The translations under genes and the position numbers were made by a program. DNA of 1,074 bases. It comes from Escherichia coli (GTDB taxonomy: Bacteria > Pseudomonadota > Gammaproteobacteria > Enterobacterales > Enterobacteriaceae). The notes beneath the pieces were generated by a model that saw nothing but the letters and a program-made list of their open reading frames with translations, was not told the DNA's origin and made no database searches. This document shows positions 1 through 1,074 of this stretch, piece after piece (position 1 is the first letter of the stretch; each line of letters begins with the position of its first letter). Location of the stretch: the NCBI RefSeq assembly GCF_003334765.1, contig NZ_QOWT01000086.1, one strand, 5' to 3'.

Positions 1-89
1 CACATGCTGAGGGTGCTGTCCGGGTGCAGCTCCGGGTCGGGCAGGCGGTTACCTGCCGGGTCTGTGGCATACGGGATATCAATGCCCAG
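1..89 (-). CDS. Probable 5' end of a downstream orphan rhs core fragment (partial; continues beyond window start; no canonical start codon visible at its 5' edge)
   Basis: Abrupt shift to about 65% GC (hand count, 1..90) immediately after the AT-rich immunity gene. The minus-strand frame reads LGIDIPYATDPAGNRLPDPELHPDSTLSM with no stops and with codons typical of highly used E. coli codons (CTG, CCG, CGC, GGC, GAC). Orphan rhs core fragments downstream of the main rhs-immunity pair are an established feature of rhs loci (for example ybfO after ybfB in E. coli K-12, recalled from memory). Identity as Rhs core is inferred, not verified by alignment. Confidence 0.45.
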   Translation of the reverse strand, partial: MGIDIPYATDPAGNRLPDPELHPDSTLSM

Positions 90-122
90 GTTACATATAA
101 TAATAAGAGCAATTAACTTAAT

Positions 123-449
123 TTATTTGTTTATAATGCGCTTACTTAATACAAACCATTGAATATACCCTCCTGACAGAAAATAAAGCCATATTATTAT
201 CGCCATAATATACTTACTATCAATCCTTACGCCAATAATGTCTGATACAGTCCCTATAAATATTAGAGCAATAAAGAATACTATGCCTGTTGGAAAACAT
301 ATTACCATCATTCCATAAGACATGAGACTAATTAACTCGCTCACATCACGAGTGGAGTCTAATAGTGAAAGTCTATGCATGGAAAAGAATAGTATTAAAA
401 GCGATAAAGCCAGCCATATAGCTCTGAATAAAAAAATAATATATTTCAT
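123..449 (-). CDS. ybfB: Putative Rhs-CT cognate immunity protein; small inner-membrane protein (108 aa, about 3 predicted transmembrane helices)
   Basis: Complete ORF with ATG at 449..447 and stop TAA at 125..123. The start overlaps the toxin stop (TAATG), and a GGAG Shine-Dalgarno lies 7 nt upstream. The protein [23 protein letters not shown]...ICFPTGIVFFIALIFIGTV...IMAIIIWLYFLSGGYIQWFVL has three long hydrophobic stretches. It sits immediately 3' of an Rhs CT domain, which is the canonical immunity position. It is extremely AT-rich (about 22% GC in a hand count of 101..160). The symbol ybfB is recalled from E. coli K-12 (a 108-aa protein downstream of rhsC) and is not verified. Confidence 0.78.
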   Translation of the reverse strand: MKYIIFLFRAIWLALSLLILFFSMHRLSLLDSTRDVSELISLMSYGMMVICFPTGIVFFIALIFIGTVSDIIGVRIDSKYIMAIIIWLYFLSGGYIQWFVLSKRIINK

Positions 450-1074
450 TACATCACTCCGGTGAATACAAATCTAATAAAACGTCCAATGTTATTTCCG
501 GAGCACTTCATCTTACATGTTTCTAAAGAATCATTAGACCAGTCTTGGCAGTTTTTAAATAGCCCTAAATTTATAGGTGTGAATATATCAGGCAATACAG
601 AATAACGCGGCCTTACCTCTTTAAACTTCCCTTTTAAACAGTTCTCCACACAACTATTATCGGTTTCAACGAGGTCACAACGGCCAGCAGCTTCTTTTGT
701 ATCATTACTTGCTTTACCTGGCCCCCATAGACCATCTCCTTTTGATTCTCCCCGTTGGTCTTGGCCACCACAAGTATAGTCCCCTTTACCATCTGGGACA
801 CAAAGATATTGATGATAGAACGGATTCCCCCATATATCTGGACCGCTTCTTTCACCAGTTCCGCCCATTGAATGCAGTGGCTTAATGCATTTTAGTGTTT
901 CTAATCCTAATGGATCTATATTTGAGATCGGATTCAACGGATACTGATAAAAATTCCATCCCCCTTTCAGCCCAATCGGATCCTGAGTGATATATCGCCC
1001 CTGCAGCGGGTCATAATAGCGGTGGCGGTTGTAATACAGGCCGGACTCCTCATCATACTGCTGCCCCGGCAGGC
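449..1074 (-). CDS. rhsC: Rhs family polymorphic toxin, C-terminal portion (5'-partial; continues upstream beyond window end). Comprises the end of the conserved Rhs core (1072..902) and a variable C-terminal toxin domain (901..452); stop TAA at 451..449.
   Basis: The minus-strand frame is open from the window edge (1072) to the stop at 449..451. Translating 1072..938 gives [45 protein letters not shown], continuing [12 protein letters not shown], which is the conserved end of the Rhs/YD-repeat core with its DPxGL junction motif (established family knowledge). The ORF-track start at 937 is a TTG inside this open frame and is not the real start. Downstream of DPLGL the sequence turns AT-richer and encodes a 150-aa Cys-rich tail. 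The symbol rhsC is a recollection of the E. coli paralog paired with a 108-aa immunity protein; the paralog assignment is uncertain. Confidence 0.88.
457..460 (-). promoter_or_regulatory. Shine-Dalgarno (GGAG) for the immunity gene, embedded in the last codons of the toxin CDS
   Basis: Minus-strand sequence ...CACCGGAGTGATGTAATG: GGAG is followed by a 7-nt spacer and then the immunity ATG (449..447). This is a typical arrangement for translational coupling. Confidence 0.5.
902..916 (-). other. DPLGL motif marking the junction between the conserved Rhs core and the variable CT toxin domain (the site of autoproteolytic CT release in characterised Rhs/Tc-family proteins)
   Basis: Codons 916..902 on the minus strand translate to D-P-L-G-L and are preceded by the conserved [24 protein letters not shown] context. 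The nucleotide composition changes from GC-rich to AT-rich around this point. Confidence 0.8.

What the first reader, a model, noticed from the sequence alone, without database searches (positions are those of the whole stretch)
1..122. Downstream orphan rhs fragment lacking a start codon, in frame with the immunity gene
After the immunity stop (125..123) the same reading frame stays open to the window edge, becoming GC-rich and strongly coding-like at 89..1 (LGIDIPYATDPAGNRLPDPELHPDSTLSM…) without an in-frame ATG/GTG/TTG at its 5' edge. Such promoterless, startless orphan core fragments are thought to act as reservoirs that can replace the main gene's CT/immunity by homologous recombination within the core. 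The window may contain one such recombination boundary.
Basis: partly seen in the sequence, partly recalled or inferred. Interest (0 to 1): 0.55.

Follow-up and report, generated by a model that had tools for sequence, protein, structure and literature searches.

The report
Orphan rhs toxin fragment ybfO

Summary
The window's minus strand is identical to E. coli K-12 rhsC (3' end), ybfB and the start of ybfO (b0703).

- **The fragment.** After the ybfB stop (125..123) comes a 30-nt AT-rich spacer. Rhs core sequence then resumes at window 92-77 and runs off the edge.
- **Homology.** Extended in K-12, the fragment is an intact 506-codon frame. Its first 1043 nt are 96.9% identical to rhsC core codons 899-1246. 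NCBIfam RHS_core matches profile positions 908-1261 (E 3e-230).
- **Its own tip.** It ends in its own boundary motif (PLNPVQYIDSMGL), a distinct ~155-aa C-terminal domain, and its own downstream gene, ybfC.
- **No start.** There is no ATG/GTG/TTG before an internal core Met codon at window 5..3, which is where MG1655 RefSeq starts the ybfO pseudogene.
- **Distribution.** The exact junction occurs in 2661 of 5426 complete E. coli genomes.
- **Other strains.** At the same kdp-ybfA locus, strains such as ETEC H10407 carry a full-length Rhs ending directly in the ybfO tip followed by ybfC, with no rhsC-CT/ybfB.
- **Direction.** Sequence patterns favour ybfO being the former tip, displaced when the rhsC-CT/ybfB module was inserted.

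Being in frame with ybfB looks coincidental.

The parts
1..77 (-). Start of the orphan rhs core fragment (ybfO/b0703). Nucleotide homology to rhsC core nt 2695 onward continues beyond the window edge for 1043 nt in total.
   Evidence: Local alignment: 1011/1043 identical, starting at window 77. In genomes without the junction, BLAST matches only window 77..1, inside full-length rhs genes. NCBIfam RHS_core E = 3.4e-230.
3..5 (-). First in-frame ATG of the fragment. It is the internal core Met codon (RhsC ...STLSMWPDN...) and is used as the start of the ybfO pseudogene in MG1655 RefSeq. No Shine-Dalgarno-like sequence lies in front of it.
   Evidence: Codon reading. MG1655 ybfO 734220-735653 maps to this ATG. 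The same residue is internal in RhsC.
78..92 (-). Boundary zone. It has degraded similarity to the core (AACCTGGGCATTGAT versus AATCTGGATATCCGC; N-L-G-I-D versus N-L-D-I-R). PGAP starts the 'missing N-terminus' RHS pseudogene at 92.
   Evidence: Side-by-side sequences; PGAP feature L001 7857 = window 92; the NCBIfam alignment starts at residue 1.
93..122 (-). AT-rich spacer of 30 nt with no homology to the rhs core. It is the 3' end of the rhsC-CT/ybfB module. No terminator-like site was found on the coding strand.
   Evidence: Sequence; composition; terminator scan.
123..449 (-). ybfB, a 108-aa hydrophobic protein and the presumed immunity gene for RhsC-CT. Its stop is TAA at 125..123 and its ATG overlaps the rhsC stop by 1 nt.
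   Evidence: ORF list; annotation 'protein YbfB'.
449..901 (-). RhsC C-terminal variable (toxin) domain of about 150 aa with 9 Cys. It matches no Pfam or NCBIfam family. Stop codon at 451..449.
   Evidence: Translation; no family hits.
902..1074 (-). 3' end of the conserved rhsC core, including the boundary motif [13 protein letters not shown] (940..902). This same core segment is repeated in the orphan 1871 bp downstream.
   Evidence: Translation; alignment of the main and orphan copies up to this motif.

Best explanation
Window 92..1 is the 5' end of ybfO, an orphan ('dissociated') rhs core-plus-tip fragment of the E. coli RhsC element.

**Shown here**
- It is a 5'-truncated copy of the last ~350 codons of the Rhs core. 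The copy carries its own tip (ybfO-CT) and its own downstream gene, ybfC, and sits directly behind rhsC-CT/ybfB.
- It has no N-terminal delivery region.
- It has no start codon at its 5' edge.
- It has no ribosome-binding site before its first ATG.
- The same tip is the working end of a full-length Rhs at the same locus in other strains.

**Inferred**
- An ancestral rhs gene ended in ybfO-CT/ybfC. A DNA segment of about 1871 bp (core fragment + rhsC-CT + ybfB + spacer) then recombined into the core. This made rhsC-CT the expressed tip and pushed the old tip downstream. This is the C-terminal displacement model of Jackson et al. 2009.
- The window's 92-77 boundary is the outer joint of that insertion.
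- As a toxin the orphan is probably silent. The 1043 bp of 97% identity with the main core allows RecA-type recombination that would re-fuse it to the delivery core, as shown experimentally for the Salmonella orphan.
- ybfC has its own ATG and a GAGAGGA Shine-Dalgarno-like sequence. If the region is transcribed by read-through, ybfC may still give immunity.
For: - **Identity and annotation.** The window is 100% identical to K-12 rhsC-ybfB-ybfO, and the annotations call ybfO an N-terminally truncated RHS pseudogene.
- **Homology.** 96.9% nucleotide identity over 1043 nt to rhsC codons 899-1246, starting at window 77.
  - NCBIfam RHS_core positions 908-1261 of 1261 match at 767 bits, and Rhs_assc_core at E = 9e-24.
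  - Pfam RHS PF03527 matches.
  - The fragment matches the C-terminal end of solved Rhs cocoons such as Tse5 and the Salmonella bongori Rhs core.
- **Own tip.** It has its own motif, a distinct C-terminal domain and ybfC with an ATGA overlap.
- **Junction frequency.** The junction is present in 2661 of 5426 complete genomes.
- **Fused alleles.** A synthetic core + ybfO-CT + ybfC query matches as one contiguous 2244-nt piece at 98.7-100% identity in dozens of genomes. 1084 genomes have a place covering at least 80% of it.
  - H10407 and A27 carry this allele at the same kdp-ybfA...ybfQ-ybfD-ybgA locus with no rhsC-CT/ybfB.
- **Direction.** Single-tip alleles carry the orphan-type core at nearly all 32 diagnostic sites.
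  - No genome joins the main-type core to the ybfO tip; the best match is 99.2%.
- **Literature.** Displacement model: PMC2935791. Orphan modules lacking initiation signals: PMC3150448. Recombination activating a Salmonella orphan through 522 bp of 95% identity: PMC3967940.
Against: - No expression, toxicity or immunity data were obtained for ybfO-CT/ybfC. Neither protein matches any Pfam, NCBIfam or PDB family outside the core.
- The direction of the event is not proven.
  - The single-tip strains analysed site by site were picked from a ranking biased toward the orphan-type core.
  - The diagnostic sites are shared polymorphisms among rhs paralogues. K-12 rhsA and rhsB are themselves mosaics.
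  - The mosaic in H10407 therefore cannot be assigned to a main-by-orphan crossover.
- The tip motif reads DSMGL rather than the canonical DPxGL.
- The orphan decays in some strains. Strain C9 has a 554-bp internal deletion.
Confidence: 0.9

Rival explanations
1. ybfO is an independent gene translated from the ATG at window 5..3 (477 aa), or from an internal start nearer the tip. It would act inside the cell together with ybfC as a toxin-antitoxin-like module rather than as a silent reservoir.
For: The 506-codon frame is intact in K-12. In Salmonella, main and orphan Rhs tips are transcribed from internal promoters within the conserved core and behave as type II TA modules (PMC7043789). Older annotation treated ybfO as a gene starting at this ATG, and that start is still used for the pseudogene in MG1655.
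Against: The ATG is simply the internal Met codon of the core, since the same STLSMWPDN occurs in RhsC, and no Shine-Dalgarno-like sequence precedes it (sequence reading). Promoter-like sites in the region are no more frequent than in shuffled sequence: 6 found versus 3.7 +/- 1.8 expected. Both curated and automatic annotations call it a pseudogene. Some strains carry deletions in the fragment.
Confidence: 0.1
2. The fragment is inert debris of a past tip replacement, with no present role. It persists only because it is young or is homogenised by gene conversion with other rhs cores.
For: In B strains the main rhsC is itself broken, yet the junction is kept. Strain C9 has a 554-bp deletion in the orphan core. 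Mosaic patterns at the diagnostic sites show frequent conversion among rhs copies. E. coli K-12 is not known to deploy its Rhs proteins (own knowledge).
Against: The junction and an intact frame are kept in a large share of genomes. YbfC protein sequence is identical (WP_000832338.1) across most sampled strains of both arrangements. An experimental precedent exists for reactivation of such orphans (PMC3967940).
Confidence: 0.3
3. Because the fragment is in frame with ybfB, read-through of the ybfB stop codon makes a YbfB-Rhs fusion protein.
For: The frames coincide: 119 codons lie between the ybfB ATG and the PGAP start of the fragment.
Against: The coincidence has a 1-in-3 chance. The stop is TAA followed by A, which is an efficient terminator context (own knowledge). 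The junction is one inherited sequence in all 2661 genomes, so its frame has not been tested by independent events. No recoding signal or RNA family was found.
Confidence: 0.01

Closest known systems
ybfO (b0703, also called rhsO), the pseudogene in the RhsC element of E. coli K-12 MG1655
   Same: It is the same sequence. The window is 100% identical to K-12, and window 5..3 is the annotated start of the MG1655 ybfO pseudogene.
   Different: Nothing differs. PGAP extends the feature 29 codons further 5', to window 92.
Salmonella Typhimurium LT2 rhs-CT orphan (STM0292) with rhsI-orphan (Koskiniemi et al. 2014, PMC3967940)
   Same: Both are 5'-truncated core fragments placed behind the main rhs gene and its immunity gene. 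Each has its own tip and its own immunity gene, and each lacks initiation and export signals. In both, homology with the main core permits fusion by recombination.
   Different: The homology tract here is longer: 1043 bp at 97% versus 522 bp at 95%. The tip and immunity sequences are unrelated to the Salmonella ones. Toxicity, immunity and recombination have not been tested for ybfO. K-12 lacks a known delivery system for its Rhs proteins (own knowledge).
Dissociated C-terminal tips formed by C-terminal displacement (Jackson et al. 2009, PMC2935791)
   Same: A GC-rich core fragment with its own tip lies in a GC-poor region downstream of the main gene. The same tip is attached to the full-length gene in related strains.
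   Different: That paper states that E. coli clade I loci generally lack dissociated tips. This clade I locus clearly has one, as do rhsA/yibJ and rhsD/ylbH in K-12.
Orphan cdiA-CT/cdiI modules of contact-dependent inhibition loci (Poole et al. 2011, PMC3150448)
   Same: The logic is the same: startless toxin-tip fragments, each retaining the family's boundary motif, and each followed by an immunity gene that can be expressed.
   Different: They belong to a different toxin family (CdiA with a VENN motif versus Rhs with PxxxxDPxGL) and use a different delivery route.

Membership tests
Orphan rhs-CT/rhsI module (dissociated Rhs tip) | [quoted passage not shown] | tested here: met
   The order rhsC - ybfB - fragment - ybfC, all on one strand
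Orphan rhs-CT/rhsI module (dissociated Rhs tip) | Begins with a 5'-truncated stretch homologous to the main gene's core | tested here: met
   1011/1043 nt identical to rhsC codons 899-1246; RHS_core profile positions 908-1261 only
Orphan rhs-CT/rhsI module (dissociated Rhs tip) | Lacks the N-terminal delivery region and translation initiation signals | tested here: met
   No ATG/GTG/TTG between the ybfB stop and window 5. The ATG at 5..3 is an internal core Met with no Shine-Dalgarno-like sequence. Actual translation was not measured.
Orphan rhs-CT/rhsI module (dissociated Rhs tip) | Own PxxxxDPxGL boundary motif followed by a C-terminal domain unlike the main gene's | tested here: met
   PLNPVQYIDSMGL followed by about 155 aa unrelated to RhsC-CT. 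The motif is a variant with Ser in place of Pro.
Orphan rhs-CT/rhsI module (dissociated Rhs tip) | Followed by its own small ORF with a start codon (candidate immunity gene) | tested here: met
   ybfC, 189 aa, with an ATGA overlap and GAGAGGA upstream
Orphan rhs-CT/rhsI module (dissociated Rhs tip) | The same tip is found fused to a full-length rhs gene elsewhere | tested here: met
   ETEC H10407 WP_000015214.1 (1399 aa) and many others at the same locus
Orphan rhs-CT/rhsI module (dissociated Rhs tip) | The tip is toxic and is neutralised specifically by the downstream protein | not testable with these tools
   No family or structure match for ybfO-CT or YbfC. This needs an experiment.
Full-length RHS element core protein (NCBIfam NF041261) | Whole-protein score at or above the curated cut-off (2000 bits), covering the full 1261-position core | tested here: not met
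   767 bits, covering positions 908-1261 only. It is a fragment, not a functional Rhs protein.

The most novel reading that the evidence does not exclude
The K-12 orphan may not be silent. As reported for Salmonella, an internal promoter or start in the conserved core just upstream of the tip could drive low-level production of YbfO-CT with YbfC. That would make it an intracellular toxin-antitoxin-like module that influences E. coli physiology. A far less likely variant is that the in-frame placement behind ybfB allows a read-through fusion.
Probability: 0.1. Interest if true: 0.35.

Novelty: already known. Interest (0 to 1): 0.12.

Why it matters
It matters little beyond confirming that the first-stage reader can recognise an orphan Rhs tip from raw sequence. 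The locus is a textbook example of how polymorphic toxin genes change their toxic ends. A displaced tip with its immunity gene is kept behind the active gene and can be swapped back by recombination. The one modest addition is a population view across 5426 complete E. coli genomes. About half carry this exact junction. Up to about a thousand (an upper bound, since the 1084 count includes IS-interrupted and deletion forms) instead have the 'orphan' tip as the working end of the gene. Core haplotypes favour the orphan being the older, displaced tip.

Tried and rejected
1. **Protein word search with ybfO-CT.** It returned only short proteins (284 aa or less). I first took this as a hint that the tip is always orphan. 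I rejected that because clustering at 90% identity hides full-length Rhs proteins that differ only in the tip. The DNA search then found many full-length fusions.
2. **H10407 mosaic as proof of a crossover.** H10407 has 12 main-type sites followed by 20 orphan-type sites. I rejected this as proof of a main-by-orphan crossover because K-12 rhsB shows the same main-type run and rhsA is also a mosaic. Gene conversion among paralogues explains the pattern equally well.
3. **Promoter and terminator scan around the junction.** Hits were no more frequent than in shuffled sequence, and no terminator-like site lies between ybfB and the fragment on the coding strand. The scan is uninformative about expression.
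4. **Rfam scan of the whole window.** Nothing was found.
5. **Family and structure searches for function.**
   - RhsC-CT: no NCBIfam or Pfam family.
   - YbfB and YbfC: no NCBIfam family.
   - ybfO-CT: no NCBIfam or Pfam family and no PDB sequence match.
6. **Literature search for the original Hill-laboratory descriptions of Rhs 'core extensions'.** They are not in the held library. Statements about that older work rest on my own knowledge.
7. **The plus-strand ORF at 4..162 (52 aa).** It is antisense to the core fragment and I treated it as spurious.

Full report
**What is in the window**

Read on the minus strand, the window holds four things in order:
- The last ~58 codons of a conserved Rhs core, ending in [13 protein letters not shown] (window 940..902).
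- A ~150-aa variable C-terminal domain, with its stop at 451..449.
- A 108-aa hydrophobic ORF at 449..123 that overlaps the previous stop by one base.
- After that ORF's TAA stop, a 30-nt AT-rich stretch followed by GC-rich sequence running to the window edge.

The frame of the small ORF stays open across this last part and reads *IKLIALIIICNLGIDIPYATDPAGNRLPDPELHPDSTLSM. GC content is 0.60 in window 1-100, against 0.25-0.35 in 101-450. No in-frame ATG, GTG or TTG occurs before an ATG at 5..3.

**Identity**

The window is 100% identical to E. coli K-12 and many other strains. Its reverse complement is L001 6875-7948. L001 holds the gene order kdpFAB, ybfA, rhsC, ybfB, then a PGAP pseudogene, then ybfC and ISAs1-family remnants. 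The pseudogene is labelled 'RHS repeat-associated core domain-containing protein, missing N-terminus' and starts at window 92. MG1655 RefSeq calls the same feature the ybfO (b0703) pseudogene and starts it at the ATG at window 5..3.

1. *Similarity to the core.*
   - The sequence downstream of ybfB aligns to rhsC nt 2695-3738 (codons 899-1246) with 1011/1043 identical bases, starting at window 77.
   - The 15 bases before that (window 92-78) keep partial similarity to the core. The 30 bases before those have none.
   - In genomes without this junction, BLAST matches only window 77..1, inside full-length rhs genes.
   - NCBIfam RHS_core matches fragment residues 1-354 to profile positions 908-1261 of 1261 (E = 3.4e-230, 767 bits, below the 2000-bit full-length cut-off). 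The Rhs_assc_core domain and Pfam PF03527 also match.
   - The same part matches the C-terminal end of solved Rhs cocoon structures.
2. *Own tip and immunity gene.*
   - The fragment is an intact 506-codon frame. It diverges from rhsC exactly at the boundary motif, which reads PLNPVQYIDSMGL here.
   - It continues with about 155 aa unrelated to RhsC-CT.
   - It is followed by ybfC with an ATGA overlap.
3. *Recombinant alleles.*
   - A synthetic query joined 600 nt of unique rhsC core, the orphan copy of the shared core, and ybfO-CT with the ybfC start.
   - It matched as one contiguous 2244-nt piece at 98.7-100% identity in dozens of listed genomes.
   - 1084 genomes have a place covering at least 80% of it. 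A few of these are IS-interrupted or deletion forms.
   - In A27 and ETEC H10407 this allele sits at the same kdp-ybfA...ybfQ-ybfD-ybgA locus. H10407 has an intact 1399-aa Rhs ending in the ybfO tip and directly followed by ybfC, with no rhsC-CT or ybfB.
   - The K-12 arrangement therefore has 1871 extra bases relative to these strains.

**How common the junction is**

A 160-nt query across the ybfB end, the spacer and the fragment start is covered at 80% or more in 2661 of 5426 complete genomes. It is one inherited junction, not a recurrent one. Decay is seen in some strains. C9 has a 554-bp deletion inside the orphan core. In BL21(DE3) the main rhsC is itself broken while the junction is kept.

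**Which tip is older**

The main and orphan copies of the shared core differ at 32 sites, and the first 143 nt are identical.
- Of eleven single-tip strains, five carry the orphan-type base at all 32 sites and five more at all but one to three. H10407 is the exception, with 12 main-type sites followed by 20 orphan-type sites.
- That sample was biased by the ranking. I therefore searched with the opposite chimera, main-type core joined to the ybfO tip. The best single-tip genome reached only 99.2% (H10407), so no genome links the main-type core to the ybfO tip along its 3' half.
- This fits an ancestral gene ending in ybfO-CT/ybfC into which a core fragment + rhsC-CT + ybfB + spacer module recombined near the 5' end of the shared tract. 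This is the C-terminal displacement model (PMC2935791).
- It fits repeated deletions with scattered crossover points less well.
- It is not proof. K-12 rhsA and rhsB are themselves mosaics of the same site states. Two-tip strains also show conversion patches.

**How it probably works**

Shown here:
- The fragment has no N-terminal domain.
- It has no start codon at its 5' edge.
- It has no Shine-Dalgarno-like sequence before the internal Met codon.
- It has no terminator-like site separating it from ybfB.

Inferred from related systems:
- It is transcribed, if at all, by read-through, and it is not translated as a toxin.
- ybfC has its own start and a GAGAGGA sequence, so it could be made and could give immunity. 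This was shown for an orphan cdiI gene (PMC3150448).
- The 1043 bp of 97% identity could fuse the tip back onto the delivery core. This was shown for the Salmonella orphan through 522 bp of 95% identity, after a duplication that preserves the main immunity gene (PMC3967940).

A rival reading is internal expression as a toxin-antitoxin-like pair, as reported for Salmonella (PMC7043789). It cannot be excluded here. Being in frame with ybfB is most simply a coincidence.

**Comparison with what is known, and verdict**

This is ybfO of the K-12 RhsC element, an orphan Rhs tip of the kind described by Hill's laboratory (own knowledge), Jackson et al. 2009, Poole et al. 2011 and Koskiniemi et al. 2014. 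Every defining feature that can be tested by sequence is met. Toxicity and immunity remain untested. Neither tip, and neither YbfB nor YbfC, matches a known family. The finding is real and was correctly interpreted, but it is already known, so interest is low.

Noticed in passing
L001 8877-8915 (K-12, downstream of the window); also L003 (H10407): The ybfO tip's boundary motif reads PLNPVQYIDSMGL, that is DSMGL in place of the canonical DPxGL. The same variant is present in the intact full-length Rhs of ETEC H10407. Whether C-terminal autocleavage still works is unknown.
   Followed up: partly
L013 991-2800 (BL21(DE3)): In B-lineage strains the main rhsC is itself broken. It is annotated as a short DUF6531 fragment followed by 'RhsC missing N-terminus', which implies a large internal deletion. 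ybfB and the orphan junction are kept intact.
   Followed up: no
L016 3893/3894 (strain C9): The orphan core carries a 554-bp internal deletion (K-12 L001 7994-8547 is absent), while the junction, tip and ybfC are identical. This is an example of orphan decay.
   Followed up: yes
window 452..901 (-) and 123..449 (-); L001 9374-9943: RhsC-CT has 9 cysteines and matches no known family. YbfB is very hydrophobic and looks like a multi-pass membrane protein. YbfC has a signal-peptide-like N-terminus. Together these hint that both toxins act in the envelope rather than in the cytoplasm.
   Followed up: no
L013, L015, L016 main copies; L018 rhsA and L019 rhsB (K-12): The 32 sites that distinguish the main and orphan core copies in K-12 occur in patchy mosaics in other strains and in the paralogues rhsA and rhsB. 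This indicates frequent gene conversion among rhs cores.
   Followed up: partly
L018 6198-6667 (yibJ) and L020 5952-6203 (ylbH), K-12: The other K-12 orphans start at different points of the core. yibJ starts at rhsA codon 1087 (470 nt, 94% identity). ylbH starts at rhsD codon 1165 (252 nt, 83% identity). ybfO starts at rhsC codon 899. Each was therefore formed by a separate event.
   Followed up: partly
hits P0007-P0022: Relatives of the ybfO tip at 66-79% identity occur in Salmonella enterica subsp. salamae, Phytobacter ursingii and metagenomes. All are short proteins (105-280 aa), some on very long contigs, so the tip may also be an orphan in other genera.
   Followed up: no
hits H1-H3; H68-H73 and H79-H85: Several strains have IS1, IS3 or IS903B insertions within this rhs locus, including between the main gene and the orphan.
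   Followed up: no
window 4..162 (+): A 52-aa ATG-initiated ORF runs antisense to the orphan start and spacer. It has no supporting evidence and is probably spurious.
   Followed up: no
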